Origin: Rubrivivax sp.
GTDB taxonomy: Bacteria > Pseudomonadota > Gammaproteobacteria > Burkholderiales > Burkholderiaceae_C
DNA length: 64,000 nucleotides
Assembly (NCBI GenBank): GCA_027491255.1
Contig: JAIXWM010000120.1
Span: 2,884 to 66,883, forward strand
Direction of reading: 5' to 3'
Part shown: positions 47,423-64,000 of the stretch, piece after piece
How positions within the stretch are numbered: position 1 is the first letter of the stretch
How the letters are laid out: each line of letters opens with the position of its first letter
The notes under the pieces: generated by a model
The model's input: the letters and a program-made list of their open reading frames with translations, nothing else
Databases searched by the model: none
What the model was told of the DNA's origin: nothing
Translations under genes and position numbers: made by a program

Positions 47423-47564
47423 GGCCCTTTTCCGAGGCTTGCGACCCGGGCGTGTGATGCAGAGTGCAGTCTAGCTGCGTCAGGCCCGCCAGCGTTTGGT
47501 CCGCGGGCCGGATCGGTGTCGGCAGGACGGCGCTACAGATTGGCGCGCTCGTGCCGAAAAACGA

Positions 47565-49112
47565 ATGCCCGTGCTGCCTGCGGCACTCCGACTGTCTTTG
47601 CTTCCCAGAACTGCCTTGCCACGCGATCTCTGCACGTCCGTGACCGATGCCTGCCGCCGGTGGCCGCTTGGCGCTGCGCCGGCTTGCCTGCGCTCGCTTG
47701 CAAGCTTCGTGGCCACTGGGTCGGCGGCGGTTCTTGCCCTGTCTTCGGCGCTGGTGTGCGGGCTTGCCCATGCGCAGACGGCGGCGGATCCTGCGAACGG
47801 CGCCACTGCGGTGACGACCGTGGCCGCGCCACGCCGCGCCGAGGCCAGGGCGTTGATACGCGAGGCCCTGGACACCCACCCGGCCGTCCTGGCCGCGCGC
47901 CAGGCCCAGGACTCGGCGCGCTTCGACGTCGAAGGCGCGCGCTGGCAGTTCTATCCCACCCCGTCGATCGCCTATGAGGCCACCAGCCGACAGACCAGCG
48001 CTGCGGCCAATCAGCGCTCCGGCGTCCTGCGCCTGCAGCAGCCCTTGTGGACAGGCGGGCGTCTGACTTTTCAGCTCGACCGCGCGCGGGCCAATGAGCA
48101 GGTCAGCGGCAGCGCGGTCGATGTCGAGCGGCGTGACGTCGCGCTGCGCATCATCCAGGCATTGGGCGAGCTGCGCACGGCCGCACTGAAGCGCTTGGCT
48201 TATCGGCGCAGCGGGGCGCTGCACGTCGAATACCAGGCGCTGGTCCAGCGCCGGGTGGCCGAAGGTCTGTCGCCCCAGGGCGATGTCGTGCTCGCGCGCT
48301 CCCGCCTCGTGTCGGTGCGTGCCGACCTGGAGGCAGCCCAGGTCCAGCAGGCGCAGGCCCTGAACCGGCTCGAGCTGCTGCTGGGCCGCAGCCTCGAGCT
48401 CGAGGAGCTTGCAGAGATCCTGGCCGATGCCCGGGACGACGCAGGCGCCGACTGGGCCAACCCCGGTCTCGAAGCCTTGCTGACCCGCGCCGCCCAAGCC
48501 AGCCCGGCGCTGCAGCGCGCGCTGTTCGAGATCGATGTCCGCCGTACGGAGGTCGACCTCGCGCGCAGCAGTCTCGCGCCCCAGGTCTCGGTGCGCGCCG
48601 AGCACGCTCGCGGCAGCACGACCTCCAGCGCCTCGACACTGCACCTGAGCGTGGCGAGCAACTTCGGTCCTGGTTTGTCGGACCGCTCGGGCATCAGCGC
48701 GGCGCTGCGCCGGGTCGATTCGAAGCAGGCAGAGCTGGAGGCGCGTCGGCGTGACGTCGCCGACCAGGTGCGCGCCGACTACCTGACGGCGGAATCCAGT
48801 GAGCGTCGCCTGCAGGTGCTGTCGGACGCCGCGGCACTGGCAGCCGACGTCCTCGTGACCTGGCGCCGCCAGTTCCTGGCGGGTCGCAAGACATGGCAGG
48901 ACCTGATGAACGCAGCCCGCGAGAAGGCCCAGGCCGACGTTCAGCTCGCCGAGACGCGTTCGGTGTATTGGGCCGCGGTGCAGCGCCTGCGCATCGCTGC
49001 GGACGGCCTGGACGCCTACCTCGACGGCCTGCCGGCCGCCGAACGGCCCGCAACGCTGCCGCCGACGGACGTCCGGCCTTCCACTCCATCTTCGACCGAG
49101 GGCGCGCGATGA
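47565..49112 (+). CDS. TolC-family outer membrane channel of a T1SS (start uncertain, 47565 or GTG 47640)
   Basis: Signal ending in LAHA/QT; ALDTHPAV, QFYPTP, LQQPLWTGG, QFLAGRKTWQDLMNAARE. Confidence 0.9.
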   Translation: MPVLPAALRLSLLPRTALPRDLCTSVTDACRRWPLGAAPACLRSLASFVATGSAAVLALSSALVCGLAHAQTAADPANGATAVTTVAAPRRAEARALIREALDTHPAVLAARQAQDSARFDVEGARWQFYPTPSIAYEATSRQTSAAANQRSGVLRLQQPLWTGGRLTFQLDRARANEQVSGSAVDVERRDVALRIIQALGELRTAALKRLAYRRSGALHVEYQALVQRRVAEGLSPQGDVVLARSRLVSVRADLEAAQVQQAQALNRLELLLGRSLELEELAEILADARDDAGADWANPGLEALLTRAAQASPALQRALFEIDVRRTEVDLARSSLAPQVSVRAEHARGSTTSSASTLHLSVASNFGPGLSDRSGISAALRRVDSKQAELEARRRDVADQVRADYLTAESSERRLQVLSDAAALAADVLVTWRRQFLAGRKTWQDLMNAAREKAQADVQLAETRSVYWAAVQRLRIAADGLDAYLDGLPAAERPATLPPTDVRPSTPSSTEGAR

Positions 49113-51319: not shown

Positions 51320-51371
51320 GCGCTGCCGTCCGGGTTGGGGGATGGTCATGCCTTGACCGGAGGCCAGTGCG

Positions 51372-52517
51372 ATGAGGCGCCTGAACTTCGGGGCCTGGAC
51401 CGGGGGGCTGCTGCTGCTGATCGTCAGTGCCTTCATGCTCTGGGCGGCGTTGTTCGAGCTCGACCAGAGCGTGCGTGCCCAGGGCCAGGTCATCCCGGAA
51501 GACCGCACGCAGGTGATCCAGGCCGCCGACGGTGGCGTGCTGCAGTCCCTGCTCGTCAGCGAGGGGCAGCGCGTTCGCAAGGGGCAGCTGCTGGCCAGCC
51601 TGGAGAAGGAACGCGCCTCCGCTGCGGTCGACGAGGTCGAGAGCCGGATCGCAGGCCTGTCGATCAACCGCATCCGCGCCCTGGGCGAGGCCAGCGAGAC
51701 CACACCCGACTACGGACGCTTCGCGCGCACCCACGCCGATGTGGTCGCGGTCCAGCAGGCCTTGTACCTTCAGAACCTGTCGGCCCTGCGCACCGAGCTC
51801 GAGGCCCTCGGCGGGGCCCTGCACCTGGCCACCGAGGAGTACGAGCTGACGCAGCGGCTGTTCGAGAACGGCGACGTCAGCCGTGTCGAGCTCATGCGTG
51901 CCGAACGCCAGGTGGTGGAGTTGCGCCAACGACGCGACGGCGTGCGGCAGAAATTCCGCACCGATGCGCGCAAGGAGATCGCCCGCATCGACGAGGAGAT
52001 GAACAGCCAACTCAGCAAGCGTCGCGAGCGGCAGAGCATCCTCGGTCACACGAACATCGTGGCGCCGCTGGACGGCGTGGTGAAGTACCTGCGCATCAAC
52101 ACGCTGGGCGGTGTGTTGCGTGCTGGTGACGAATTGATGCAGATATCGCCCACCGAAGGCGGCTATGTCATCGAGGCCAAGATCAACCCCGTGGACATCG
52201 GCAAGCTCAGGATAGGCCTGCCGGTGGCGGCGCGCTTCGATGCGTTCGACTACACCGTCCACGGCACGCTCACCGGACGTCTGACGTACTTGAGTTCAGA
52301 CACTCTGGTTGAGCAGGGGTCGGGTGGACAAAGTAACATTTACTACCGTTCTCACATCCTCATGGAACCGCAGCAAGCCAACCCGAAGCTGACGCTGGGA
52401 CAACTCAAGCCCGGCATGACGGCGACGCTGGATTTCCAGACGGGCAAGAGCACGGTGCTGGCCTTCATCGCCAAGCCCATTCTGCGCGCCTTCAGCGGTG
52501 CGCTGACCCAGCAATGA
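51372..52517 (+). CDS. T1SS membrane fusion protein (HlyD family)
   Basis: N-terminal TM, VRAQGQVIP, GGVLQSLLVSEGQRV, IVAPLDGVV, LKPGMTA, KPI. Confidence 0.95.
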   Translation: MRRLNFGAWTGGLLLLIVSAFMLWAALFELDQSVRAQGQVIPEDRTQVIQAADGGVLQSLLVSEGQRVRKGQLLASLEKERASAAVDEVESRIAGLSINRIRALGEASETTPDYGRFARTHADVVAVQQALYLQNLSALRTELEALGGALHLATEEYELTQRLFENGDVSRVELMRAERQVVELRQRRDGVRQKFRTDARKEIARIDEEMNSQLSKRRERQSILGHTNIVAPLDGVVKYLRINTLGGVLRAGDELMQISPTEGGYVIEAKINPVDIGKLRIGLPVAARFDAFDYTVHGTLTGRLTYLSSDTLVEQGSGGQSNIYYRSHILMEPQQANPKLTLGQLKPGMTATLDFQTGKSTVLAFIAKPILRAFSGALTQQ

Positions 52518-52560
52518 GTTCGCCGATGGCGTCCTGCCGGGCGGTTCGGTCGCACGGGCA

Positions 52561-53259
52561 ATGAAGTCCGAGACCGGCTTCCAGTTCTGGCCCGGCTACG
52601 TGGCGGCGATCAGCTGCCTCGTGCTGGGGCTGCTGCTCGTGGCTTCTGTGGTTGCGTCCTTGACCACGCAGCTCGGCCTGATCGCCGCCGATGTCAACTC
52701 CGCCTTGCTGGCGCAAGCCTTCAGGCGCGCGGCGGCGCGTGCCGAGGCGCAGGCGCAGGGCGACGCCGCCGCGGTTGCACGCCCCGCGGCTGCTGCGACT
52801 GCGGTCGCCGTGGCGCCGCCCTCCGTGGCGCCGCCGCTGCCGCTGCCGGCCGAGCCCCCCGTCGTCCCGCTGCCTGCGGCGACGGCGCCGGCAGCCCTGC
52901 CGCAGGCAGCGGTCGACAACCACCTGACCTTGATCTTCGGCGAACAGGTGTCGGGCATTCCGCCAGAACGGCGCCCCGAGATCGCAGCTTCGCTGCGCGA
53001 ACTCACGGTCGCGCCAGGCTCGTCCTGGCGGGTCTGGGCGACAGCGCCGGACGGCGAACTCGCCCGGCGGCGCAGCACTTTCAGATTGATGGTCGCGGTG
53101 CGCACGTTTCTGGCGGAGCAGGGCATTCCCGAGCGGGCCGTGGAACTGCGCCTGCTCGAGGGCCCGGTCACCGGCAATCCGGGCGACATCGTCGTGCGGG
53201 TCGGGCCGGCGCAGGCCGGTGTCACAACGCCTGCGGCTGCCGCGGCGGCTCGCCCCTGA
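52561..53259 (+). CDS. MotB/SiiA-like membrane protein, paralog 1 (no channel Asp)
   Basis: FWPGYVAAIS then a single TM, Ala/Pro linker, C-terminal OmpA-like segment (MVAVRTFLAEQGIPERAVELR). Confidence 0.65.
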   Translation: MKSETGFQFWPGYVAAISCLVLGLLLVASVVASLTTQLGLIAADVNSALLAQAFRRAAARAEAQAQGDAAAVARPAAAATAVAVAPPSVAPPLPLPAEPPVVPLPAATAPAALPQAAVDNHLTLIFGEQVSGIPPERRPEIAASLRELTVAPGSSWRVWATAPDGELARRRSTFRLMVAVRTFLAEQGIPERAVELRLLEGPVTGNPGDIVVRVGPAQAGVTTPAAAAAARP

Positions 53260-53273
53260 GGACCGAACACGCC

Positions 53274-54338
53274 ATGGACAGCAGCGCATTGCCGCACCGG
53301 GTGGTCAGTCGCGAGGAGGTCGATGCCTTGCTCGGTTTCGCGCCGGCGCAGGGCGCGGCGCCTGATGCGGCGCGGGACGGCGCGGTCCTGACGCCGGGGC
53401 AGCGCTTGGACCTCGAACTCGAACTGCCGGCACCGCCGTCGCGCGCACGTGCGGGCTGGCGCACCGCCGCGCGCCCCATCGATGCGTGGCCGGAAGCGAA
53501 ATTGCGACCTGCCGCCGTCGCCGTCTGGCTGCGGCGGCCCACCCAAGGCAGGGCGGTCGAGTGGTCCGGGATCGATTTCTGGCCGGCCTACGCCGACGTG
53601 CTGTCCAACGTCGTGCTCAACCTGCTGTTCCTTGTCGGCACGTTGACGCTGGGCCTGGTCGTGCTGAACCAGGAAGTGGTCGGATTCCAGAAGCGTCTGG
53701 CGGCGTTGATGTCCCAGGAAGTGCCGGCGCCACGGCGGACTGTGCAGGCCGCGCCGGCGCCCGCGCCGACCACCGCAGCGGCGCCCAAGGCTGCGCTGCC
53801 TCCTGCTGAGGCTGCGTCCTCTGCCGCGTCTGTCAGGCTGGTGCCTTCCACGGCTGCTGCGCCCGCTGCGGCCGCACCTGCAGCGGCGCAGGAGGCGTCC
53901 CCGCGGCCCCTGCGCGAGTTTGCAATGCGCAACGAGTCGGTGGCGCCGTCCGGGGGGCCTGCGGGCGGCGGCGGCGTGGCGACCGCCGAGCAGCGACGGA
54001 TCGCCGAGTCTGCCGCCCAGACCTTGGTCGGAGGGCGCCACGCTGCCACGCTCGTCTTCGACCTTCGCGAGACACGCTGGCCGCGGTCGCGACCCATCGT
54101 CGGGGCCGAGCACCTCGGCCCGGACGATCGACGCGCGCTCGTGGCCTTCGCTCCGGTGGGCAACCGGCGACTGATGGCCGATGCCTTCAGCCGCTTGACC
54201 TCGGTGCGCGAGGCCATGGTCGCCTCCGGCGTGCCCGCCAGCCGCATCGACTTGAGGATCGCTCCAGTGCCGCCCGAACTGGAGAACGACGACAGCGTGT
54301 CGGGCAGTGTCTTCGTCATCAACCTGGGAGGGTCCTGA
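53274..54338 (+). CDS. MotB/SiiA-like membrane protein, paralog 2 (Asp retained, ~100-aa N-terminal extension)
   Basis: FWPAYADVLS then a TM, Ala/Pro linker, OmpA-like C-terminus (RLTSVREAMVASGVPASRIDLR). Confidence 0.72.
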   Translation: MDSSALPHRVVSREEVDALLGFAPAQGAAPDAARDGAVLTPGQRLDLELELPAPPSRARAGWRTAARPIDAWPEAKLRPAAVAVWLRRPTQGRAVEWSGIDFWPAYADVLSNVVLNLLFLVGTLTLGLVVLNQEVVGFQKRLAALMSQEVPAPRRTVQAAPAPAPTTAAAPKAALPPAEAASSAASVRLVPSTAAAPAAAAPAAAQEASPRPLREFAMRNESVAPSGGPAGGGGVATAEQRRIAESAAQTLVGGRHAATLVFDLRETRWPRSRPIVGAEHLGPDDRRALVAFAPVGNRRLMADAFSRLTSVREAMVASGVPASRIDLRIAPVPPELENDDSVSGSVFVINLGGS

Positions 54339-54368
54339 CCGTCTGCCGAGTCAGACGCGCCAGGATCC

Positions 54369-55751
54369 GTGAATGCCATGGCTGCAGTGCTGGAAAACCT
54401 TTCGACCGTGCCCGACCAAGACCTGGAAGAGGCCGCCACTTCGCGCCCTGCCGGCCGCGTGCGGGCCGTCGCGCCGCCTGCGGGCCCTGGACGGGCCGTC
54501 GTCCGCGACTGGGTGTGGGTGCTCGCGCCGACGCTGATGCTCGGGCTGGTCATTTTGTTGCTTTTTCGCAATCCCTTCCTGTATGCACTCACCTCGATGC
54601 CTGGCAGCCAGATCGTGCAGGCGATCGTGGTGGCCTTCGCCGGCGGCTTGGGCTTGGTGTGCGCCGCGCTGCATCGTTTCGGCACCGAGAGCGCGCTGCT
54701 GGCGCAATGGCGTCATGCAGCTTCCGTCGAGGCGCGCGAGCGGTTGCTGGACGGCTGGGGCCGCCCGTCCTGGGTGCTGTCGTTGCTGCGGGCGCTTGGC
54801 GCTCGCGAGACGTCCGTCTTCGAGCGGCAGGTTCGGCTCGATGCCGAACTTTCCGCGCTGCGCGAGCGCCTTGCCGGGCGCCTGACGGCGCCGAATTACC
54901 TGGCAGGTTCCTTGATCGGGCTGGGCCTGGTGGGCACCTTCCTCGGCTTGATCGCGACGCTGGGTGACCTGGGGCGGCTGTTCGACTCCCTGCTGGGGGC
55001 CGACCGGGCCGGCATGAACCCCACCGACATGTTCGCCGACATGGTGCGCCGGTTGCAGGAGCCGATGCAGGGCATGGGGACGGCATTCGTCTCCTCGCTG
55101 TTCGGGCTGGTGGCTTCATTGCTGCTGGGATTGAATGCCCTGACGGTGGCGCGCGCCGGCAGCCGGGTGGCCGACGACGCCGCCGAGCTGGTGCGGCAGT
55201 TCGAGGCCGAGCGGTCGACGGCTCAGGCGGCGGAACTGGAGTCGGTGGCGGCGCAACAGCGGGAGACCTTGGCCTTGGAGATGAAGCTTCGGGCCGAGGA
55301 ATGGCGGCGCTTCCTGGACGACCTGGTCGAATTGCAGGCGCGTCAGGAACACCAGGCCTCGCTCTGGCGTGAGCAGATCGCGGAGATGTCCGAGAACACG
55401 CGCACGCTGGCCAACGCCTTGCGCGATCGCCTGCGGGTGGACCGCGCGCCGGCCCGGCTGAGATTGCGCGAGGACAAGAGCGCACCCCGCCGCCGGGCCA
55501 CCCACGGCCTGGAGTCGGCGTCCGGTACCGGACTGGACGGCACGGCTCTTTGGAAGAACATCGGTGAGTTGACCGCCGCCCAGGGTGAAAAGCTGGCGGC
55601 GGAGCTGGGTCGCATTTCGCAGGAGCAGACCGGGCTGATGTGGAACATGTCCCAGAACCTGGAACATCTTTCCGATCTGCTGCACTCCACCTTGAGCCGC
55701 CAACTGTCGCTGACCTTGACCGTGGATCCGTCCCGCAAGCCCTCCTCCTGA
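54369..55751 (+). CDS. MotA/TolQ/ExbB-family (SiiB/ZorA-like) channel subunit with cytoplasmic helical tail
   Basis: About 4 TM segments; GLGLVGTFLGL and GMGTAFVSSLFGL motifs; predicted coiled-coil C-terminus; GTG 54369 or ATG 54378. Confidence 0.78.
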   Translation: MNAMAAVLENLSTVPDQDLEEAATSRPAGRVRAVAPPAGPGRAVVRDWVWVLAPTLMLGLVILLLFRNPFLYALTSMPGSQIVQAIVVAFAGGLGLVCAALHRFGTESALLAQWRHAASVEARERLLDGWGRPSWVLSLLRALGARETSVFERQVRLDAELSALRERLAGRLTAPNYLAGSLIGLGLVGTFLGLIATLGDLGRLFDSLLGADRAGMNPTDMFADMVRRLQEPMQGMGTAFVSSLFGLVASLLLGLNALTVARAGSRVADDAAELVRQFEAERSTAQAAELESVAAQQRETLALEMKLRAEEWRRFLDDLVELQARQEHQASLWREQIAEMSENTRTLANALRDRLRVDRAPARLRLREDKSAPRRRATHGLESASGTGLDGTALWKNIGELTAAQGEKLAAELGRISQEQTGLMWNMSQNLEHLSDLLHSTLSRQLSLTLTVDPSRKPSS

Positions 55752-55789
55752 GCGGGCCCGGGGTGTGCCTGGATGTCCGGATCGCAGGG

Positions 55790-55890
55790 CTGTGTTGAAA
55801 TATTAGTTTGAAAACATTTGTACGTGAGAAAATCTGAGAAGCACTGAACCTTTTGCGCAAGGGTGCTGCAAGATAATGTGACTTGAATGA
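55790..55890 (+). promoter_or_regulatory. AT-rich putative promoter region of the adhesin gene
   Basis: GTTGAAATATTAGTTTGAAAACATTTGTAC...AAGATAATGTGACTTGAATGAA is far more AT-rich than its flanks; exact elements not assigned. Confidence 0.45.
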
Positions 55891-55982
55891 ACCGAATGGG
55901 GAGACTGCGTGCGTTCGTTGTGGGGGTTCTGCCGTGGCTCGCCTGAGTCCGCGACACGGAGACGGGGCCTCGAGGAGGGTGG

Positions 55983-58900
55983 ATGACTGACACCCCCCGC
56001 CCGGCTCCTTCCGAAGGACAGGCGATCAGCCCCGAGGCAGCTGCAGCGCAGGCTGCGGCTGCCGCACGTGCTGCTGCGGCTGCGGCAGCACGCGCGGCAT
56101 CCGTGCCGCGCTACAACCGCGTCGTCATCAACGTACCGCGCACCGAGGTCGTCGGCGTCGCGATCGTCGACACCGATTTCGTCTTCACACTGAAATCCGG
56201 TGTCCGCTTGCTGGTGCGCGACGGCGCGATGCGCTCCGCGGCCGAGCCCGATTTCGCCATCATCTTCGCCGGTGAGGCGGTCGAGGGGCAATCGCTGATC
56301 GCGGTGGCCGACGCGAACTCCGGCATTTCCGTCACGCAGGATCCCTGGGGCGAGGCGCTGGCGCGTCCGGGCGAGGCGACACCGGGTCTGGTGCCGGAGA
56401 CGACGTCCACGGCCATGGCTGCGCCAGCCAGCACCGTGCCGCCGGCGCCCCCTGCGCAGCCCGACATGCTGGAGGGTGTCCGTCGTTTCTTCCAGCAGCC
56501 GCTCGTGTCCCTCGGGTCTGCGGCGCTGGGCGTGGCCGGCTTGTCCGGTCTCGGCGCGGCGACGGCAGCAGTCGCGGGAGGCTCCGCGACCACGCTCGCC
56601 ACCATCGTCGAGGTCGTGGCCGTCGGCGGCCCCTTCATCGCCGACGTGCTGGTCACCCTTTATGACGCGGACGGTCGCGTCGTTGCCGTGTCGGTCAGCA
56701 ACGATCCGGGTTCGCACACCTTCAATCTCCCGGCAGACCTGCCCTCGGGGGATTACCTCCTTGTAGTTGGCGACCTCAACAGCAGCCAGCCTGACTACAT
56801 GGACGAGCGTCTCGGCACGCCGGTGGACCTGCCCGACGGCGGCTTGCGGGCCATCTTCAGCCTCAGTTCCAGCGCGACGAACCGTGTCAGCGTCACGCCC
56901 CTGACGGAGATGGCGGTGCGCCGCGCCTTCCTGCAGGCGGGCATGCCCATCGACAGCGTCGACGCGCCGGCTGCCAGCATCGTGGCAGCCGCGAACCAGC
57001 AGATTGGCGCCCTGTTCGGCGTGACCAACATCCTGGGCGACGTCGTCCCGGTGATCGGGATCGACGGCCGCGTGAACCCGACCTTTTCGGAAGACGAGGT
57101 CACCGCGGCCGAGCATTACGGTCGCGTGCTTGCCGCTCTGTCCGGGCTCGATGCGGTCACCGCCAGCACCCTGAACACATTGCAGGCCTTCACCCAGGAA
57201 GTGCTGCGCTCGGCAGATCTGTCGTCGTCAGCGACGCAGACGCTGGTGCGCGAGATGCTCAGCCAAGGCGCCAACAGCTTTGAGAACTCGCCCACCGGCA
57301 CCCAGACCTTCGCAGACCTGACCGGCTTCATACGCGAGACCCTGCGCGAGCTGGTTGCGCCGCCGCCGGTCAACCGCATGGCGGCCGAACGCGCCACGGG
57401 TGCATCCCTGCTCAGCGGCGGCTTGTCGAACTCCGACGCCGATGCCGCCAAACCGCTGGCCGATGGCTTCGTCAACGAGGCGGACCTGGCCGCAGCCGGC
57501 ACTGCCGCGGGGGCCATCCGCCTGCCCGTGGCGATCCCTGGTTCCTCGCTGGTCGGTGACCGCCTGACGCTCACCATCCCGGCGGCCGACGGCGGAACCC
57601 CCCTGGTCGCGAGCCGGCTCCTTGCCAGCGAGGATCTCTACCGCGGTTACGCGCTGATCGACCTGGGCGCCGACGACCTGCGCGCCATGCGCGACGGCGT
57701 GAAGTCCCCGGTCGTGCGCGTGGAGGCGCCGGCAGGGTCGGGCGTCCAGCCTGTGGAGTACCCCGCGCTGACGCTGTGGGGCGGCAAGCTCACGCTCGAC
57801 ACCCAGGCGCCCGCGGTCACGCAGCTGTCCATCAGCGCCACCAGCGGCGGCACGCTCGACTCCGCAGAACCGGGCGTCGTCTACCTGAACGCCGGCGACG
57901 TCGTGCGTGTGGCGGTGCGGTTCGATTCCGATGTCGTCGTCAGCGGGCGTCCGAAGCTGATGCTCGAGATCGGCGACGGCGACACGCCCGTCCAGGCCGA
58001 CTACCTCTCCGGCAGCGGCGGCAACGTGCTGACTTTCAGCTACGTCGTCGCCGCTGGGCAGAACGACGCCACCGGCATACGCATCCCCGCCAACGCGCTG
58101 ACGCTGCCCACGACGTCAGACCGCATCACCGACGCGGCCGGCAACCCGGCGGTGCTCACGAGCGCGCTTGTCTCGGGCGCTGAAGCACCGCGCGTGGACA
58201 CCGTCGCACCAGCGGTCTCGCTGACCAGCGCCGAGCTCTCCGGCAACTCGGACGCCGTGGTGTCCGTCAGCGAACCGGGCACGGTGTATCTCGTGCGGGA
58301 CACGGTCGCTGTCGGTGTCGATCCGCAAGCGATACGGCTGTCGCCCGGCAACCTCTGGAACGAGGCCCAGGCGATTGCGACCACGGGCGGCCCGATCGAG
58401 GTCCGGGTCAGCACCCAGGGTCTGCTGCCGGGCACCTACAAGGCCTACGCGGTCGACCGTGCAGGCAACCTGTCTCCGGTGTCCTCGGGCTCGGTGGTCA
58501 TCGACACATCCGAGCCTTTCATCCTTCCCGACGGGGGCGTCCGGTTCACGGCGTCCACAGGCGCGCGCGACGGCCTGTTGAATGCGGGCGACACCGTCAC
58601 CGTTACATTCAATTTCAGCGAGCCGGTTTCGGTGACCGGTCAGCCCAGCGTCGCGCTGAGAGTGGGCAACGTGACCGTCGAGGCCCGTCACGTCCCGTCG
58701 GGCAGCGGGCCGTCGGCCCTGCAGAATTTCGTCTACACCGTCGAGCCGGGCCGCACCGATCTTGACGGCATCTCCATCGGCGCCAACAGCCTCATCCTCA
58801 ACGGCGCCACGATCCGCGACGTCTCGGGCAACGACGCCAGCCTGGAGCACGCTCAGGTCTCGGCCGATCCGGCCTACCGCGTCGACACGACGGCACCGTC

Positions 58901-61900
58901 GGTCGCGGTCGGCGGCGTGCAGCTCAGTGCCTCGCCCGACCAGTTGTCCCTGCCGCCTTCCAGCCGGCTGGAACCGGGCGCCAAGGTCTACGCCCGGGTC
59001 GTCTTCGACGAGGCGGTCACCGTCACCGGCAGCCCGCAGCTGGCCCTGAAGGTGGGCGACACCATCGTCCAGGCCAGCTACGAGGGGGGCTCGGGCTCGA
59101 CGACGCTGAACTTCTCCTACACGGTCCAGTCGGGGCAGAAGGACGCCGACGGCATCAGCGTGCCTGCCAACGCCCTCACGCTGGGGTCGGACGCCACCAT
59201 CGTCGACGCCGCCGGCAACGCCGCGCGGCTGGGCCTGGCTGCGGTTGGCGACAACCCGGGCTTCCTGGTCGGTGAGCGTGCCCGGATCGCGCTCGAGAAG
59301 ATCCGCGACTACGACGGCGTGACCGCGGCGCCGTCGGTGCAGGACTACGCCGACGCCGGTGTCACCGGGGTCGACGCGGCCAACCTCGGGTCCGTCAACA
59401 GCGCATTCGCCAAGATAGGCCCGGACGCCTCGGACACCGTGGCCGAGGTGCAGGCTGTTGTCGACATCTACCGGCGCCTGCTGGCTGCGGCCGATGGCGG
59501 CGCCGCGCCCGAGCCCGAGCCGCTGCCTACGCGCGCCGAGTACGCCCAGCTGGGTGTGGCGGGCGTCGACAACGTGGCTCAGGAGCGGCTGCTCGGGGCC
59601 GTGATCGACGGCAAGCCAGGCATCGCCGTCGACACCCTGGCGGAACTGCAGGCGCTGGCTGACGCGGTCAAGGCCGTGACCACGGGCGCTGCGGGTGGAA
59701 CGTCGCCGACGAAGGAACAGCTCGAACTGCTGGGCATCACCCGCGTCACTGCCGACAACGAGCCCGCGGTCAGCGACGCGATCGCGCGCACGGCCGATGA
59801 CGGCTCTGGCGTCGACACCCCCGCCGGGCTGCAGCAGGTGGTTGACGCCGCCATCGCCGCCGCCGACGCCGCATTGGCCCTGATCAAGGCCTACGACGGC
59901 AGCAACACCGCACCCGTCATTGGCACCTATGTCGATGCTGGCGTCAAGGGGGTGACGACCGAGAACCTGGGCGCGGTGAACAGCGCCGTTGCCTTCCTGC
60001 CGCCCGAGAAGACGGACTCGAGGCTGGAGGTGCAGGCGGTGGTCGACGCCTATGTCTCCATTCTGGCCGCTGCAGACGGACTGCCTGGCAATGCAGCCGA
60101 TCCCACCGGCGCTCAGTACGAGGCCGTCGGCGTGTCAGGCGTGGACACGCCCGCGGAGCTGAGTCTGCTGGGCGACGTCATCGACGGCAAGCTCAGCGGT
60201 GCGGTCGACACTCGCGAAGAACTCAACGCGTTGGCGGGGCATGTCGATGCCGTGATCCGGGGGGCGGCCGGTGCGGCGCAGCCCTCCGCGTCGCAGTTGC
60301 TGGCTCTGGGTGTCACCGGCGTCACGGAGGAGAACCTCGCCGCCGTCCAGCGCGCGATCGCCCGCACGGCAGACGACGGCACCGGAGTCGATACGCTTCC
60401 TAAGTTACAGGCGGTGGTCGACGAGGGCCTGCGCAGGCTGTCCGATGCCCTGAAGGTCCTGCGCGAGTACAACGGCAGCAACACCGTTCCTACGCTCGAC
60501 ACCTATTTCGACGCCAGCGTCATCGGCGTTGACGGGTCCAATCTGGGCGCAGTCAACAGCGCGGTCGCTCTCCTGCCCCCTGAGAAAACCGACACCATCA
60601 CCGAGGTCCAGGCCGTCGTCAACGCCTACCAGGCCATCCTCGACGCCGCGAACGGCATCGATGACAACGGCTCGAAGCCGAGTATCCGTCAGTACGAGCT
60701 CGTAGGCGTCACCGGTGTCGACCAGCAACTCGAGCAGCGGCTGCTCGGCGATGTGATCGACGTCAAGCGCACCGCCGATGTCGACACGGTGTCCAAGGTG
60801 CAGGCGTTGGCCGATGCGGTGTCACGCGTGCTCGGCCCGGCCGCCGGGGACCCGCCTGCGGGGCCGCTGCAGAAGGCCGACCTGGCCTCGCTCGGTGTGG
60901 ATGTCGCCCGTTTGCGCGACATCTACATGCCCAAGGTCCGTGCCGTCATCGAGCGACAGGCCGAGAGCAATCCTGACGACCTGGGCACGCTCGATGGCTT
61001 GAGAGCCTATGTCAGCGCGGGCGTGGGCGAGGCCGCGCTCGACATCATCCAATCCTTCGACGGGAGCACGTCCGCGGTCATGCCTGACCTGCAGGTCTAT
61101 GCCGACGCGGGCGTGCGCGGTGTGGACGCCGCCAACGTCGCGGCCGTCAACAGCGCCGTGGAACTGCTGGGCACGGGCAACAAGTCGAGCGCGGTGCAGG
61201 TGCAAGGCATCGTCGACACCTACGCCCGCATCCTCGCCGCTGCCGATGGCAGCAGGGATGACGACGTCCGCGTGAGTGCGGCCGACTACCGCGACAAGCT
61301 GGGTGTGGGCGGCCTGGCCGCGCTGGCCGACGCCAGCCCCGGGGCTGTGACCGCCGGCGAGACCTTGATGGCCGATGCGGTGGACATCGCTTCCCGCTCC
61401 CAGGTCGACAACGTCACTGAATTGAGGGAGCTGGCAGACATCGTCGCCCGGGTCGTCAGGCAGGCCACCCCGGGCCAGCCCCTGCAGCAGATCGGGGAGC
61501 TGGACTTCGAGCGTCTGGGGCTGGATCCGGTCGTGCTTACGCCGGCCCGCGCGGCGGCGCTGCTGGCCGACATCAGAGGCCGCGGTGCCGACCAGGTGGA
61601 CACCCTGTCCGAGCTTTCCGCCCTGATCGATGTCGTCGCCCCGACGGTGGGCTTGCGGCTGTCCTCGGCCGGACCGGTGATCAATGCCGCCGAATCGACT
61701 CAGCAGACCGACGGCGTGGTTCAGATCCACGCCGAGCCAGACAGCACCTGGACCGTCACGCTCACCGGCGCAGCCGGAGGCGTGGTCGTGCGACAAGGCT
61801 CGGGCACCGGTGAATGGCAGCCGTTCACGCTGTCATCCACCGATGTCCTCACGCTCGGCCAGGGCGCGGTCGGCGTTTCGGGCACGGTGACCGACCGCGC

Positions 61901-64000
61901 CGGCAACCAGAGCGCGCGCACCGAAGCGGCCTTCTTCGTCGTCGACACCGTGGCGGCGCTCTTCATCGACGATCCGCTCGTGGGCGACAACCGGGTCACC
62001 TCGCTCGAGGACAACGACCTCGTCATCTCCGGCACCGCGCTCGGTATCGAGCCGGGCCGTGCCGTCAAGGTCACCCTGACCGACAAGAACAACGCAGCGC
62101 AGAAGACCGAACTCACCGCGACCGTCGACGCCGGCGGGCGTTGGGCCACGGCTGCGGCCGACGTCAGCCACTGGGTCAGCTTCGGCCGCACCGGGATACA
62201 GGTTCAGGTCGAGGCCAGCGATGCGGCGGGCAACCCTGCGCAGGCGGCACGCGAACTCGAACTCGACAACAGCGCGCCGCAGGTCATCAGCCGCTGGGGA
62301 GAGATCGACGGAGGGGTCGTGCCCACGGTACGGCACTACGAGGACTTCGGCGTCGTCGGCGTCATCGGGGGCGTAGGCGGCAACCTGGACGCGGTCAACA
62401 GTGCCGTGGCCTTCCAGCCCGCGAGTGCGACCGACACCACGGCGAAGGTCCAGGCCATCGTCGACGCCTACACGCGGGTGCTGGCAGCGGCAAACGGCGT
62501 GGCCGGCGACACCGGCACTCCGCAGCGGCCGACGGCCGGAGACTTCGCCACCCTGGGGGTGGCCCGGGTCGACAGCGAGGCCAAGGCCGCTTTGTTGGCC
62601 GACGTGGTTGACGCCAAGCCGAGGGTGGCCATCGACACCGTGGCCGAGTTGCAGGGCCTGGCCGACATCGTCGACAAGCTCGTGCGTCACGCCACCCCTG
62701 GCGAGCCCGCGCAGGACATCACCGAAGCCGAGCTCGAGCGCCTGGGAATCGACCCCGTCGTGCTCACGTCCGGCCGCGCGGCGGCGCTGCTGGCTGACAT
62801 CCGCGACGTTGGCGCGGCGCAGGTCGATACCTTGGCCAAGTTGTCGGCGCTGGTCGATACCGTCGCCCCGGAAGCGGTCCTGCAGTTGTCCACGGCCGGC
62901 TCCGTGATCAACGCCACCGAGGCCGTGGCTTCCGCCGGCGTGGCCGTCGTCAGCCCCGAGGCGGGTTCGGCCTGGACGGTGACGATGACCGGGGCATCCG
63001 GCAGCGTGGTCTCGCGCCAGGGAGCAGGCACGGGCGCCCCACAGGCGCTGACGCTCAGCGCCGCCGATGTCGCCACGCTTGGCCAGGGGCCCGTGGCCTT
63101 CGTGCTCACGGTCACCGACCGCGCCGGCAACGTCACGACGCGTCCCGAGCCGGGCTTCGTCTTTCTTGACACCCAAGCCGGTCTCACCATCGACGACCCG
63201 CTCGAAGGCGACAACCGCGTCACCTCATTCGAGGACGATGACGTCGTTGTCTCCGGTCGCACGACAGGCGTCGAGCCGGGCCGCACGGTCAGGGTCACGC
63301 TCACCGACAGCTCGAATCCGTCGCGGCAGCTCGTGGCCGAGGCGACGATCGCTGCAGATGGCAGCTGGGCCGCCGCGCCACAGGACCTGAGCGCCTGGGT
63401 CGTCTTCGGGCGCACAGGCGTCCTCGTCCAGGCCGAGGTCGTCGACGCCGCTGGCAATGTCGCGCGCTCGCAGCGAGAACTGGAGCTTGACAACAGTGCG
63501 CCGCAGGTCATCAGCCGCTGGGGGGATGCCGGCAGCGTGGTCGAACCCACCCTGCAGCACTACCTGGATTTCGGTGTCACCGGCGTCACCGACGGGCCTG
63601 CGGGCAATCTGGCAGCGGTCAACAGCGCCGTCGCCCTTCAACCTGAGCAGGCCACCGATACCCCGGCCAAGGTCCAGGCCATCGTCGACGCCTACAACAA
63701 GGTGCTGGCCTCGGCCGACGGCGCGGCAGGCAACACCCCGGCAAGCGGGCGCCCGACAGCGCAGGACTACGCGGTGCTGGGCATCGTCGGGGTGGATACC
63801 CTTGCAAATCTGGCGCTGCTCAATGAGGTGATCGACGGGCGTCCGCGCGACGCCGTGGACACCGTGCAGGAGTTGCAGGCGCTGGCAACCGTCGTCGGCA
63901 AGCTGCAGCGCCACGCGACCCCGGGCGAGCCCGCCCAGCAGGTGAGCGAGGCGGAGTTCGAGAGCCTGGGCATCGATCCAGCGCTGCTGACGGCCGATCG
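55983..64000 (+). CDS. Giant repetitive T1SS-secreted adhesin (BapA/SiiE-like), 3' truncated
   Basis: GAGGAGG RBS then ATG 55983; same frame confirmed at many checkpoints (56751, 58011, 59271, 60411, 61611, 62871, 63960); at least 2672 codons; Ig-like (AVDRAGN, VTDRAGN) and GVTGV repeats. Confidence 0.9.
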   Translation, partial: MTDTPRPAPSEGQAISPEAAAAQAAAAARAAAAAAARAASVPRYNRVVINVPRTEVVGVAIVDTDFVFTLKSGVRLLVRDGAMRSAAEPDFAIIFAGEAVEGQSLIAVADANSGISVTQDPWGEALARPGEATPGLVPETTSTAMAAPASTVPPAPPAQPDMLEGVRRFFQQPLVSLGSAALGVAGLSGLGAATAAVAGGSATTLATIVEVVAVGGPFIADVLVTLYDADGRVVAVSVSNDPGSHTFNLPADLPSGDYLLVVGDLNSSQPDYMDERLGTPVDLPDGGLRAIFSLSSSATNRVSVTPLTEMAVRRAFLQAGMPIDSVDAPAASIVAAANQQIGALFGVTNILGDVVPVIGIDGRVNPTFSEDEVTAAEHYGRVLAALSGLDAVTASTLNTLQAFTQEVLRSADLSSSATQTLVREMLSQGANSFENSPTGTQTFADLTGFIRETLRELVAPPPVNRMAAERATGASLLSGGLSNSDADAAKPLADGFVNEADLAAAGTAAGAIRLPVAIPGSSLVGDRLTLTIPAADGGTPLVASRLLASEDLYRGYALIDLGADDLRAMRDGVKSPVVRVEAPAGSGVQPVEYPALTLWGGKLTLDTQAPAVTQLSISATSGGTLDSAEPGVVYLNAGDVVRVAVRFDSDVVVSGRPKLMLEIGDGDTPVQADYLSGSGGNVLTFSYVVAAGQNDATGIRIPANALTLPTTSDRITDAAGNPAVLTSALVSGAEAPRVDTVAPAVSLTSAELSGNSDAVVSVSEPGTVYLVRDTVAVGVDPQAIRLSPGNLWNEAQAIATTGGPIEVRVSTQGLLPGTYKAYAVDRAGNLSPVSSGSVVIDTSEPFILPDGGVRFTASTGARDGLLNAGDTVTVTFNFSEPVSVTGQPSVALRVGNVTVEARHVPSGSGPSALQNFVYTVEPGRTDLDGISIGANSLILNGATIRDVSGNDASLEHAQVSADPAYRVDTTAPSVAVGGVQLSASPDQLSLPPSSRLEPGAKVYARVVFDEAVTVTGSPQLALKVGDTIVQASYEGGSGSTTLNFSYTVQSGQKDADGISVPANALTLGSDATIVDAAGNAARLGLAAVGDNPGFLVGERARIALEKIRDYDGVTAAPSVQDYADAGVTGVDAANLGSVNSAFAKIGPDASDTVAEVQAVVDIYRRLLAAADGGAAPEPEPLPTRAEYAQLGVAGVDNVAQERLLGAVIDGKPGIAVDTLAELQALADAVKAVTTGAAGGTSPTKEQLELLGITRVTADNEPAVSDAIARTADDGSGVDTPAGLQQVVDAAIAAADAALALIKAYDGSNTAPVIGTYVDAGVKGVTTENLGAVNSAVAFLPPEKTDSRLEVQAVVDAYVSILAAADGLPGNAADPTGAQYEAVGVSGVDTPAELSLLGDVIDGKLSGAVDTREELNALAGHVDAVIRGAAGAAQPSASQLLALGVTGVTEENLAAVQRAIARTADDGTGVDTLPKLQAVVDEGLRRLSDALKVLREYNGSNTVPTLDTYFDASVIGVDGSNLGAVNSAVALLPPEKTDTITEVQAVVNAYQAILDAANGIDDNGSKPSIRQYELVGVTGVDQQLEQRLLGDVIDVKRTADVDTVSKVQALADAVSRVLGPAAGDPPAGPLQKADLASLGVDVARLRDIYMPKVRAVIERQAESNPDDLGTLDGLRAYVSAGVGEAALDIIQSFDGSTSAVMPDLQVYADAGVRGVDAANVAAVNSAVELLGTGNKSSAVQVQGIVDTYARILAAADGSRDDDVRVSAADYRDKLGVGGLAALADASPGAVTAGETLMADAVDIASRSQVDNVTELRELADIVARVVRQATPGQPLQQIGELDFERLGLDPVVLTPARAAALLADIRGRGADQVDTLSELSALIDVVAPTVGLRLSSAGPVINAAESTQQTDGVVQIHAEPDSTWTVTLTGAAGGVVVRQGSGTGEWQPFTLSSTDVLTLGQGAVGVSGTVTDRAGNQSARTEAAFFVVDTVAALFIDDPLVGDNRVTSLEDNDLVISGTALGIEPGRAVKVTLTDKNNAAQKTELTATVDAGGRWATAAADVSHWVSFGRTGIQVQVEASDAAGNPAQAARELELDNSAPQVISRWGEIDGGVVPTVRHYEDFGVVGVIGGVGGNLDAVNSAVAFQPASATDTTAKVQAIVDAYTRVLAAANGVAGDTGTPQRPTAGDFATLGVARVDSEAKAALLADVVDAKPRVAIDTVAELQGLADIVDKLVRHATPGEPAQDITEAELERLGIDPVVLTSGRAAALLADIRDVGAAQVDTLAKLSALVDTVAPEAVLQLSTAGSVINATEAVASAGVAVVSPEAGSAWTVTMTGASGSVVSRQGAGTGAPQALTLSAADVATLGQGPVAFVLTVTDRAGNVTTRPEPGFVFLDTQAGLTIDDPLEGDNRVTSFEDDDVVVSGRTTGVEPGRTVRVTLTDSSNPSRQLVAEATIAADGSWAAAPQDLSAWVVFGRTGVLVQAEVVDAAGNVARSQRELELDNSAPQVISRWGDAGSVVEPTLQHYLDFGVTGVTDGPAGNLAAVNSAVALQPEQATDTPAKVQAIVDAYNKVLASADGAAGNTPASGRPTAQDYAVLGIVGVDTLANLALLNEVIDGRPRDAVDTVQELQALATVVGKLQRHATPGEPAQQVSEAEFESLGIDPALLTAD
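57880..59260 (+). repeat. Three Ig-like modules with Y-x-(S/G)GSG...F-x-Y-x-V-x2-G-x2-D-x2-GI motif
   Basis: YVVAAGQNDATGI (~58040), YTVEPGRTDLDGI (~58735), YTVQSGQKDADGI (~59120). Confidence 0.7.
59280..61620 (+). repeat. About four tandem ~190-200 aa helical repeats, each with paired GV-x-GV motifs
   Basis: Units begin near 59280, 59875, 60450, 61040; recurrent Y-x-DAGV-x-GV-x3-NLG-x-VNSA and EVQAVVD-x-Y. Confidence 0.75.
61629..64000 (+). repeat. ~408-aa tandem repeat (two Ig-like domains plus a helical GVTGV block), about two copies visible
   Basis: SAPQVISRWG encoded at 62271 and 63495 (1224 nt apart); D-x-VAP at 61629 and 62856 (1227 nt apart). Confidence 0.8.

What the first reader, a model, noticed from the sequence alone, without database searches (positions are those of the whole stretch)
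47565..64000. SPI-4-like locus: T1SS, MotAB-type ion-motor module and giant adhesin in a non-enteric, Burkholderiales-like genome
Seen: tolC-ABC-hlyD is followed on the same strand by two single-TM genes with WP-x-Y-x-(D/A) motifs and OmpA-like C-termini, then a 457-460 aa MotA/ExbB-family gene, then an ORF of at least 2672 codons of Ig-like and helical repeats. Known: the well-studied case of a T1SS with its own MotAB/ExbBD-like channel is Salmonella SPI-4, where SiiA (MotB-like, essential TM Asp, peptidoglycan-binding domain) and SiiB (MotA-like) control function of the giant adhesin SiiE. Inference: this is a distant three-gene version of a proton-driven accessory motor that controls retention, release or presentation of an adhesin. 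No LapD/LapG genes are in the window, so it may be an alternative to c-di-GMP/LapG-controlled release.
Basis: partly seen in the sequence, partly recalled or inferred. Interest (0 to 1): 0.9.

Follow-up and report, generated by a model that had tools for sequence, protein, structure and literature searches.

The report
SiiAB-type proton motor on adhesin secretion system
A freshwater-type betaproteobacterium carries true relatives of the Salmonella SiiA/SiiB proton channel next to a secretion system for a giant adhesin. Here the channel's axle protein is duplicated, and one copy always lacks the proton-binding aspartate.

Summary
On the + strand lie TolC, an LssB/LapB-type ABC exporter, HlyD, two single-TM proteins (B1 with FWPGYVA, B2 with FWPAYAD), a 457-460 aa MotA/ExbB-fold protein (A) and a giant Ig-repeat ORF that runs off the contig.

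The SPI-4 reading holds as homology:
- A matches Salmonella SiiB: BLASTP 2e-19, 29% identity over 296 aa, 460 vs 462 aa.
- B2 shares SiiA's WPxFVD transmembrane motif and has a predicted OmpA-like domain.
- The adhesin's N-terminal module matches SiiE residues 36-84.

In 40 related loci, the A gene has B1 and B2 nearby in 35. A protein carrying the same N-terminal module lies nearby in 27, and a T1SS is adjacent or close in about 15. No Zorya partner genes were seen.

B1 and B2 are old paralogs. B2 always keeps the Asp. B1 lacks it in all but one locus (Chlorobi). Enterobacterial SiiAB-like pairs have a single Asp-bearing SiiA-like gene, apart from one Cedecea locus of the three-gene type. The genome has neither LapG nor LapD.

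Most likely this is a proton-driven A5:B1:B2 unit that controls surface retention of the adhesin. That function is inferred from Salmonella, not shown here. I rate it a new variant of a known kind.

The parts
47496..49112 (+). TolC-family outer-membrane factor of the T1SS. The start is uncertain: TTG 47496, ATG 47565 or later. The close relative L055 has a 461-aa call.
   Evidence: PF02321 3.4e-37 and TIGR01844 1.3e-38; same position in L001, L002, L009, L010, L012, L019, L034, L039 and L055.
49109..51319 (+). LssB/LapB-type T1SS ABC exporter; the model match includes the N-terminal region ahead of the membrane domain. ATG 49109 overlaps the TolC stop.
   Evidence: TIGR03375 2.3e-176 over model positions 6-695; PF00664 and PF00005.
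51372..52517 (+). HlyD-family membrane fusion protein
   Evidence: TIGR01843 2.8e-77; 22% identity to SiiD, BLASTP 8e-19.
52561..53259 (+). B1: SiiA/MotB-like single-TM protein without the channel Asp (FWPGYVA; Ala codon 52603-52605). It has an Ala/Pro-rich linker and an OmpA-like C-terminal domain.
   Evidence: In family alignment A3, 25 of 26 rows lack the Asp. Full-length paralog of B2, hhalign E 1e-30. The B1 sequences form one clade, SH-aLRT 99.
53274..54338 (+). B2: SiiA/MotB-like single-TM protein with an invariant Asp (FWPAYAD; Asp108, codon 53595-53597). It has a disordered linker, an OmpA-like C-terminal domain and a ~95-aa N-terminal cytoplasmic extension.
   Evidence: The Asp is invariant in 27 of 27 rows. 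AF2 plus Foldseek match Pal, OmpA and MotB. hhalign to the SiiA TM motif gives 90%, E 1.7e-6. Pal hit by profile, E 0.018.
54369..55751 (+). A: SiiB-like MotA/ExbB-fold protein. It has four predicted TM helices and a ~190-aa helical cytoplasmic tail. GTG 54369 gives 460 aa; ATG 54378 gives 457 aa.
   Evidence: BLASTP to SiiB 2e-19. AF2 pLDDT 75; the Foldseek hits at E <= 0.001 are all ExbB, with TolQ, MotA and ZorA below them. PF01618 1.5e-5. PADLOC ZorA only 1.6e-6.
55752..55982 (.). AT-rich intergenic region ahead of the adhesin gene; probably its own promoter or regulatory region
   Evidence: Sequence read; no sigma-70 consensus match. This is inference only.
55983..64000 (+). Giant Ig-like and helical-repeat adhesin, cut by the window and by the contig end (at least 3674 aa)
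   Evidence: Big_13 3e-10, Ca_tandemer 3e-17, tandem large repeat 1e-18; still open at the contig end.
56109..56312 (+). Conserved N-terminal module of the adhesin (about residues 43-110, ...VDTDFVFTLKSG..L.RDGAMR..PDFAIIF...). It is a candidate handle for retention.
   Evidence: Present at the start of a neighbouring ORF in 27 of 40 loci. Its HMM hits SiiE residues 36-84 at 18.7 bits, against a maximum of 10.8 in 2000 shuffles.

Best explanation
The locus encodes an LssB/LapB-type type I secretion system for a giant adhesin, plus an accessory inner-membrane unit of the SiiAB family.

The A protein is a SiiB homolog with a MotA/ExbB fold. It probably forms a pentameric ring around two single-TM B subunits. 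Here the two B positions are probably filled by one B1 (no Asp) and one B2 (Asp108). Both would be tethered to peptidoglycan through OmpA-like domains.

Proton flow through the single Asp site would drive rotation or a conformational step of A. Its helical cytoplasmic tail could pass that movement to the ABC exporter/HlyD complex. The complex would then hold or release the conserved N-terminal module of the adhesin in the secretion channel. Membrane energy, rather than LapG proteolysis, would then decide whether the adhesin stays on the surface or is shed.

Shown here: homology to SiiA, SiiB and the SiiE N-terminus; the predicted folds; the conserved gene set; Asp conservation in B2 and its loss in B1; absence of LapD/LapG.

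Inferred: 5:2 stoichiometry, the B1:B2 heterodimer, proton conduction, coupling to the T1SS, and the effect on retention.
For: 1. A vs SiiB: BLASTP 2e-19, 29% identity over 296 aa, lengths 460 vs 462 aa. The match includes the family-specific loop MV..L.EP..GM.TAFVSS. Profile vs SiiB 97.9%.
2. The A model matches ExbB, TolQ, MotA and ZorA.
3. B2 has a WPxYxD TM motif aligned to SiiA's WPSFVD. Its modelled C-terminal domain matches Pal, OmpA and MotB. The Asp is invariant in 27 of 27 rows.
4. B1 is a paralog at E 1e-30 and lacks the Asp in 25 of 26 rows. It forms one clade whose inner groupings mirror those of B2. B1 and B2 overlap by 4 nt in 19 loci.
5. Synteny: 35 of 40 loci have A, B1 and B2. 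A T1SS is adjacent in 12, and close by in 3 more genomes. A protein carrying the N-terminal module is a neighbour in 27 of 40.
6. The adhesin's N-terminal module matches SiiE residues 36-84. Deletions in the first beta-sheet domain of the SiiE N-terminus cause over-retention (PMC6272769).
7. In Salmonella, SiiAB conducts protons through SiiA Asp13 and binds peptidoglycan (10.1101/641415). SiiB binds the ABC protein SiiF (PMC12607715). The uncoupler CCCP lowers SiiE retention (PMC6272769).
8. The genome has no LapG and no LapD.
Against: There are no functional data for this organism. No multimer model could be run, so the stoichiometry and the B1:B2 pairing are untested.

Similarity of B1 and B2 to SiiA is limited to about 30 TM residues (BLASTP 0.001). 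The periplasmic domains match only at fold level, and SiiA's own periplasmic-domain structure did not appear in the Foldseek top 50.

The SiiE N-terminal match is short (49 residues, 18.7 bits). In Roseateles the nearest LssB-type ABC gene lies more than 450 kb away.

The mechanism by which SiiAB controls retention is unresolved even in Salmonella (PMC12607715).
Confidence: 0.6

Rival explanations
1. The A/B1/B2 unit helps drive or start export of the very long substrate, for example by opening or engaging TolC or supplying PMF-dependent pulling. It would not control retention after secretion.
For: The unit is fixed next to the T1SS core genes, directly after hlyD. Related ExbBD and TolQR motors transmit force to the outer membrane (PMC12204202). 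The substrates are extremely long: at least 3674 aa here, with further fully open repeat contigs in the assembly.
Against: In Salmonella, deleting siiA and siiB leaves SiiE secretion into the supernatant intact and affects only adhesion and invasion (PMC12607715). No TonB/TolA-like transducer gene was seen in the locus.
Confidence: 0.15
2. B1 is not a partner of B2 in one complex. It would form separate, non-conducting A5:B1-2 complexes, or act as an inhibitor or anchor that sets how many active units exist.
For: B1 lacks the Asp in 25 of 26 rows yet is conserved, including its OmpA-like domain. Enterobacterial SiiAB-like pairs work with a single SiiA-like gene. Bordetella genomosp. 5 places B1 apart from B2, after the cargo gene.
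Against: B1 and B2 overlap by 4 nt in 19 loci, and their trees mirror each other. Both patterns are usual for subunits made in fixed ratio. A complex with no Asp has no known activity.
Confidence: 0.2
3. The three genes form a Zorya-like anti-phage module that merely sits beside a T1SS.
For: PADLOC ZorA models hit A at 1.6e-6 to 1e-5. A has a helical cytoplasmic tail, as ZorA does. ZorA structures appear among the Foldseek hits.
Against: The ZorA hits are far weaker than the SiiB match, and they overlap the MotA/ExbB-type membrane core that both families share. No ZorC/D/E/F/G-like genes were seen in any of the 40 loci; the neighbours are T1SS genes and cargo proteins carrying the N-terminal module. 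B1 and B2 gave no PADLOC hit.
Confidence: 0.02
4. It is an extra flagellar-stator, Tol or Ton paralog with a housekeeping role unrelated to the adhesin.
For: MotA/ExbB fold; weak TIGR03818 MotA hit, 1.8e-3.
Against: Only about 2-3% of genomes sampled in two groups carry it, and in the loci examined it lies beside adhesin or T1SS genes. No flagellar, TonB or TolA/TolB/Pal genes are adjacent. B1 and B2 have OmpA-like domains, not ExbD/TolR-type ones.
Confidence: 0.02

Closest known systems
Salmonella enterica SPI-4 SiiA/SiiB with the SiiCDF T1SS and the adhesin SiiE
   Same: A is a sequence homolog of SiiB at the same length. B2 shares SiiA's layout: a short N-terminus, a WPxFVD TM helix with an Asp, a disordered linker and an OmpA-like domain (10.1101/641415). 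Both sit in one cluster with TolC, HlyD, an ABC exporter and a giant Ig-repeat adhesin. The cargo's N-terminal module is shared with SiiE. Neither system has LapG.
   Different: There are three genes instead of two: the SiiA-like subunit is duplicated into an Asp-less B1 and an Asp-bearing B2. Gene order is TolC-ABC-HlyD-B1-B2-A-cargo, against siiA-B-C-D-E-F. The hosts are mostly freshwater-type Betaproteobacteria and Sphingomonadales rather than enteric bacteria. B2 here has an extra 95-aa cytoplasmic N-terminus.
Flagellar stator MotAB/PomAB
   Same: MotA-type fold with four TM helices and a GxxGT TM motif. The B subunit has a TM Asp and an OmpA-like peptidoglycan-binding domain.
   Different: There is no flagellar context. 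A carries a long C-terminal helical tail. The B subunits are a heterologous pair, one without the Asp. Sequence similarity to MotA is marginal (TIGR03818 1.8e-3).
Zorya ZorAB
   Same: A MotA-like protein with a helical cytoplasmic tail, and a B subunit with a peptidoglycan-binding domain. Weak PADLOC and PDB hits.
   Different: The tail is about 190 aa, far shorter than in ZorA. No ZorC/D/E partners are present. The context is T1SS and adhesin genes.
Myxococcus AglRQS (gliding motor with two MotB/TolR-like subunits)
   Same: One A-type subunit with two paralogous B-type subunits encoded together. Whether these pair as a heterodimer is also unknown there (PMC9389320).
   Different: AglQ and AglS both keep the TM aspartate (PMC9389320); here one paralog has lost it in nearly every locus examined. 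The periplasmic domains and cellular roles also differ.
LapA/LapBCE with LapD/LapG (Pseudomonas fluorescens)
   Same: The ABC exporter is of the same LssB/LapB class. Both export a giant adhesin whose N-terminal part is thought to plug the channel.
   Different: LapG and LapD are absent from the genome. Release there is by c-di-GMP-controlled proteolysis; here a proton-channel unit takes the accessory position.

Membership tests
SiiAB-type T1SS accessory unit (SPI-4 type) | SiiB-like A subunit with detectable sequence homology | tested here: met
   BLASTP 2e-19, 29% identity over 296 aa, 460 vs 462 aa; hhalign 97.9%; profile hit in the SPI-4 region at E 1e-19.
SiiAB-type T1SS accessory unit (SPI-4 type) | SiiA-like B subunit: N-terminal TM helix with an essential Asp, a disordered linker and an OmpA-like peptidoglycan-binding domain | tested here: met
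   B2 Asp invariant. TM motif aligns to SiiA at 90%, E 1.7e-6. AF2 shows a disordered linker and an OmpA-like domain. Peptidoglycan binding itself was not tested.
SiiAB-type T1SS accessory unit (SPI-4 type) | Encoded in one cluster with TolC, HlyD, an ABC exporter and a giant Ig-repeat adhesin | tested here: met
   Window gene order; recurs in related loci.
SiiAB-type T1SS accessory unit (SPI-4 type) | Two-gene unit with a single SiiA | tested here: not met
   Two paralogs, B1 and B2, here and in 35 of 40 loci. The enterobacterial SiiAB-like pairs where a B gene was detected have one SiiA-like gene. I therefore file this as a variant.
SiiAB-type T1SS accessory unit (SPI-4 type) | Asp-dependent proton conduction and PMF-dependent adhesin retention | not testable with these tools
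   Known for Salmonella only (10.1101/641415; PMC6272769).
5:2 ion-driven motors (MotAB/ExbBD/TolQR/ZorAB) | MotA/ExbB fold of the A subunit | tested here: met
   Foldseek hits at E <= 0.001 are all ExbB, with TolQ, MotA and ZorA below them; TM-score to target 0.5-0.6; PF01618.
5:2 ion-driven motors (MotAB/ExbBD/TolQR/ZorAB) | A5:B2 stoichiometry | not testable with these tools
   No multimer prediction was available.
Zorya (ZorAB plus ZorC/D, ZorE or ZorF/G) | Adjacent ZorC/D, ZorE or ZorF/G effector genes | tested here: not met
   The neighbours identified in the 40 loci are T1SS genes, cargo proteins, and in Cedecea LuxR and EAL genes. B1 and B2 gave no PADLOC hit.
Flagellar stator MotAB | Flagellar gene context and a match to the MotA equivalog model | tested here: not met
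   TIGR03818 scores 17.5 bits against a cut-off of 303.8; no flagellar genes are nearby.
ExbBD/TolQR | ExbD/TolR-type B subunit and a TonB or TolA partner | tested here: not met
   The B2 C-terminal domain is OmpA-like; no TonB/TolA-like gene was seen in the locus.
LapDG-controlled LapA-type adhesin system | LapG protease (PF06035) and a LapD receptor | tested here: not met
   No PF06035 hit in the 98%-complete genome. The only LapD_MoxY_N hit is a histidine kinase.

The most novel reading that the evidence does not exclude
The unit is a naturally asymmetric 5:2 machine whose axle is an obligate B1:B2 heterodimer with only one proton-binding aspartate. Such a device might work as a PMF-gated latch with discrete steps rather than as a free rotor. 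It would act, through the tail of A and the ABC/HlyD complex, on a dedicated N-terminal handle shared by SiiE and many environmental giant adhesins. That would define a LapG-independent class of adhesin retention control found across several groups of Proteobacteria.
Probability: 0.35. Interest if true: 0.8.

Novelty: new variant of a known kind. Interest (0 to 1): 0.62.

Why it matters
How SiiAB uses the proton gradient to hold or release SiiE is still unknown (PMC12607715). SiiAB is also the only T1SS-linked motor named in a 2025 overview of such motors (PMC12204202).

This locus shows that the system belongs to a wider family. A profile search found 301 protein clusters at E <= 1e-30. Members occur in freshwater Betaproteobacteria, Sphingomonadales and some Enterobacteriaceae, so the mechanism can be studied in harmless, cultured strains.

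Two features give concrete handles. The first is a cargo N-terminal module inherited together with the motor genes. The second is an old duplication that leaves one Asp-less and one Asp-bearing axle subunit. That pair is a natural test of whether a 5:2 motor needs both proton sites.

Tried and rejected
- Sequence searches of PDB with A, B1 and B2, singly and as profiles, gave only marginal hits: ZorA E 1.3, Pal 0.018, ZorB 1.1. Fold comparison was needed.
- The N-terminal cargo module has no solved relative by sequence and no Pfam or NCBIfam family.
- I rejected the Zorya reading because the hits are weak and no partner genes are present.
- I considered that Legionella LssX/Y/Z (lssXYZABD) might be the same triad. 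The paper I read does not describe those proteins and I could not fetch them, so this is untested.
- The LapD_MoxY_N hit in the genome is a histidine kinase.
- A literature search on whether AglQ and AglS keep the Asp gave nothing useful. A review answered it: both keep the Asp.
- The 'of' option of the genome search needed a genome handle (one search failed).
- No sigma-70 promoter-like site or convincing terminator was found inside the cluster.
Full report
**What is there**

The region sits in a genome of about 70% G+C. On the + strand it carries, in order:
- a TolC-family gene (47496/47565-49112);
- an LssB/LapB-type ABC exporter (49109-51319; the ATG overlaps the TolC stop);
- a HlyD-family adaptor (51372-52517);
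- two single-TM genes, B1 (52561-53259) and B2 (53274-54338);
- a MotA/ExbB-family gene, A (54369/54378-55751);
- a 231-nt AT-rich spacer;
- a giant ORF from 55983 that is still open at the window end and at the contig end, at least 3674 aa.

Family assignments are firm for the T1SS genes: TIGR03375 2e-176, TIGR01843 3e-77, PF02321 3e-37. For A they are weak by library models: PF01618 1.5e-5, PADLOC ZorA 1.6e-6. B1 and B2 hit no domain family. Their TM segments match only the N-terminus of an NCBIfam model named 'peptidoglycan-binding protein' (PRK09039). Upstream, on the other strand, lie spoT, rpoZ and gmk, as in the closest relative L055.

**Folds**

An AlphaFold2 model of A was built on a 24-sequence alignment (mean pLDDT 75). 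It shows a helical membrane core followed by one very long helix (218-370) and a second helix (391-451). The Foldseek hits at E <= 0.001 against PDB are all ExbB. TolQ, MotA and ZorA follow, with TM-scores to the target of 0.5-0.6.

The B2 model has a TM helix (103-149), about 90 disordered residues and a confident C-terminal alpha/beta domain (pLDDT 86-97). That domain matches Pal, the OmpA C-terminal domain, OprF and MotB. B1 aligns with B2 over its full length, including this domain (hhalign 99.85%, E 1e-30).

**Is it really SiiAB-like?**

I searched 401 genomes of the family that holds Cedecea with the A profile, and 13 had a hit. One genome has a 4,857,450-bp chromosome with the hit at 4.478 Mb. 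There, a 210-aa gene and a 462-aa gene are followed by TolC-like (439 aa) and HlyD-like (425 aa) genes and a giant ORF. These sizes match published SiiA (210 residues) and SiiB (10.1101/641415), so I take this locus to be SPI-4.
- A vs this SiiB: BLASTP 2e-19, 29% identity over 296 aa. The match runs through TM2, the cytoplasmic domain, TM3, a family-specific periplasmic loop (MV..L.EP..GM.TAFVSS.YG), TM4 and the start of the tail. The profile comparison gives 97.9%.
- The B2 profile aligns its WPGYVDAL.NV motif to SiiA's NPWPSFVDTFSTV. This places the invariant B2 Asp on SiiA Asp13 (90%, E 1.7e-6). B1 gives a weaker match.

SiiB is much the closest characterised relative of A. MotA, ExbB and ZorA are far more distant.

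**Conserved gene set**

A pattern scan of species-representative genomes returned 39 loci, and an identity look-up added one more. Most hosts are Burkholderiales (Rubrivivax, Limnohabitans, Polaromonas, Polynucleobacter, Hydrogenophaga, Roseateles/Mitsuaria, Bordetella genomosp. 5). Others are Sphingomonadales, a Cedecea and a Chlorobi bin. I searched these loci with profiles of A, B1, B2, the T1SS proteins and the cargo's N-terminal block.
- 35 of 40 loci hold A, B1 and B2. Two more are cut by contig ends.
- B1 and B2 overlap by 4 nt in 19 loci.
- TolC, ABC or HlyD genes lie directly upstream in 12 loci. In Sphingorhabdus, Limnohabitans DCL3 and Cedecea the LssB-type ABC gene lies within roughly 7-20 kb.
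- In Roseateles chitinivorans the nearest such ABC gene is more than 450 kb away.
- Alternative gene orders exist. Roseateles, Mitsuaria and Cedecea have A-cargo-B1-B2. Bordetella genomosp. 5 has HlyD-B2-A-cargo-B1.
- The Cedecea locus is flanked by further RTX/Big_13 proteins and followed by LuxR and EAL genes.
- No Zorya partner genes were seen anywhere.

**The duplicated B subunit**

The B2 Asp is invariant in 27 of 27 sequences. At the same position B1 has Ala, Ser or Gly in 25 of 26 rows of the alignment. The same holds in the additional Roseateles, Mitsuaria and Cedecea loci. Only the Chlorobi locus has Asp in both genes.

In a maximum-likelihood tree the B1 sequences form one clade (SH-aLRT 99). 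Its inner groupings mirror those of B2, and the enterobacterial SiiA-like proteins form a separate long-branched clade. The tree is a quick search on 223 columns and carries a long-branch warning, so only the B1 clade and the mirrored groupings should be relied on.

Enterobacterial SiiAB-like pairs, where a B gene was detected, have a single WPSFVD or WPTFVD gene. The duplication is therefore old, both copies are maintained, and they are inherited together. I infer a B1:B2 heterodimer in the centre of the A ring, with a single proton-binding site. The alternative is that B1 forms separate inactive or regulatory complexes. This cannot be excluded.

For comparison, Myxococcus AglQ and AglS are also two B-type paralogs, but both keep the Asp. 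Their pairing is unknown (PMC9389320).

**The cargo**

The adhesin has Big_13 and Ca-tandemer repeats. Three other contigs of the assembly (C183, C104 and the start of C110) are fully open reading frames of similar repeats. The C110 piece ends without GGxGxD repeats. Whether they belong to the same gene is unknown.

The first ~110 residues include a module (...VDTDF....KSG....(K/R)DGA.R....PDF...F.D..V.G...) that is conserved at the start of a neighbouring ORF in 27 of 40 loci. The rest of these proteins differs. An HMM of this block hits SiiE residues 36-84 at 18.7 bits; the best of 2000 shuffles of the same 110 residues scored 10.8. In the joint alignment two positions are invariant, SiiE included.

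In SiiE, deletions in the first N-terminal beta-sheet domain cause over-retention (PMC6272769). I therefore read this module as the handle held by the secretion apparatus. That reading is inference.

**How it probably works**

For Salmonella the literature reports the following.
- SiiAB forms an inner-membrane complex that conducts protons through Asp13.
- SiiA binds peptidoglycan (10.1101/641415).
- SiiB interacts with the ABC protein SiiF.
- Deleting siiAB leaves secretion intact but reduces adhesion and invasion (PMC12607715).
- Acidification raises SiiE retention and CCCP lowers it (PMC6272769).

By homology, the unit here most likely uses proton flow through B2 Asp108 to move A. Through the ~190-aa helical tail of A it would act on the ABC/HlyD complex, so that the N-terminal handle stays lodged or is let go.

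The genome lacks LapG. Its only LapD_MoxY_N hit is a histidine kinase. This supports the idea that the unit replaces LapDG-type control in an LssB/LapB-class T1SS.

**How common, and how new**

The A profile finds 1871 clusters at E <= 1e-3 among 1.84 billion representatives, of which 1165 are at E <= 1e-10 and 301 at E <= 1e-30. It hits 7 of 401 genomes of the window's own order and 13 of 401 of the family that holds Cedecea.

In the paper library, SiiAB is the only T1SS-linked member listed among such motors (PMC12204202). I found no description of relatives outside Salmonella or of a duplicated SiiA. That library is incomplete, so this is not proof of absence.

Earlier AI notes of this scan report SiiAB-like modules on T1SS loci in at least 13 other genomes. 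Some carry other third genes, such as PilZ, a Cache-like protein or a small membrane protein. These notes agree with the general picture but are not independent evidence.

**Verdict**

The locus is a real SPI-4-type system in a non-enteric bacterium. Its distinguishing feature is the conserved Asp-less/Asp-bearing B pair. I rate it a new variant of a known kind, with interest 0.62.

Noticed in passing
window 53274-53560 (B2 residues 1-95): B2 has a ~95-aa cytoplasmic N-terminal extension that most family members lack. It is kept in the 87%-identical relative L055, where the B2 call is 351 aa. The AF2 model shows one short helix at residues 13-19 (EEVDALL; the pLDDT block for residues 11-20 is 79) in an otherwise disordered stretch.
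   Followed up: partly
window 55752-55982: The spacer between A and the adhesin gene is strikingly AT-rich for a genome of about 70% G+C (for example ttgaaatattagtttgaaaacatttgtacg). It is probably a separate promoter or regulatory region for the adhesin. No sigma-70 consensus was found.
   Followed up: partly
own genome contigs C183 (1-9003), C104 (1-16029), C110 (3-5066): Three further contigs are entirely or largely one open frame of related Ig-like repeats (3001, 5343 and 1688 aa). C104 ends and C110 begins in the same repeat. The assembly has probably broken one or more giant adhesin genes. The C110 piece ends without RTX nonapeptides.
   Followed up: partly
L029 15869-17246 (Cedecea sp. 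S5-13): In the Cedecea version (A, 998-aa RTX/Big_13 cargo, B1, B2) the unit is followed by a LuxR-type regulator and an EAL-domain protein. This hints at c-di-GMP input in that lineage.
   Followed up: no
L034 8754-14679 (Bordetella genomosp. 5 AU14646): The gene order is HlyD-B2-A-cargo (about 800 aa with the N-terminal module)-B1. B1 is separated from B2 by two genes.
   Followed up: no
L017 4041-5350 (Chlorobi bin): Both B genes carry WPGYVDA, so the Asp is kept in both. This is the only such case among the loci examined.
   Followed up: no
window 48893-49108: The longest ORF for the ABC gene extends 72 codons upstream into the TolC gene. The likely true start is ATG 49109, giving an ATGA overlap with the TolC stop.
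   Followed up: yes
own genome C65:7366-7623 (L057): A PAS-HisKA-HATPase sensor kinase has a LapD/MoxY-type periplasmic domain and lies next to a phosphonate-type binding protein. It is unrelated to the adhesin locus.
   Followed up: partly
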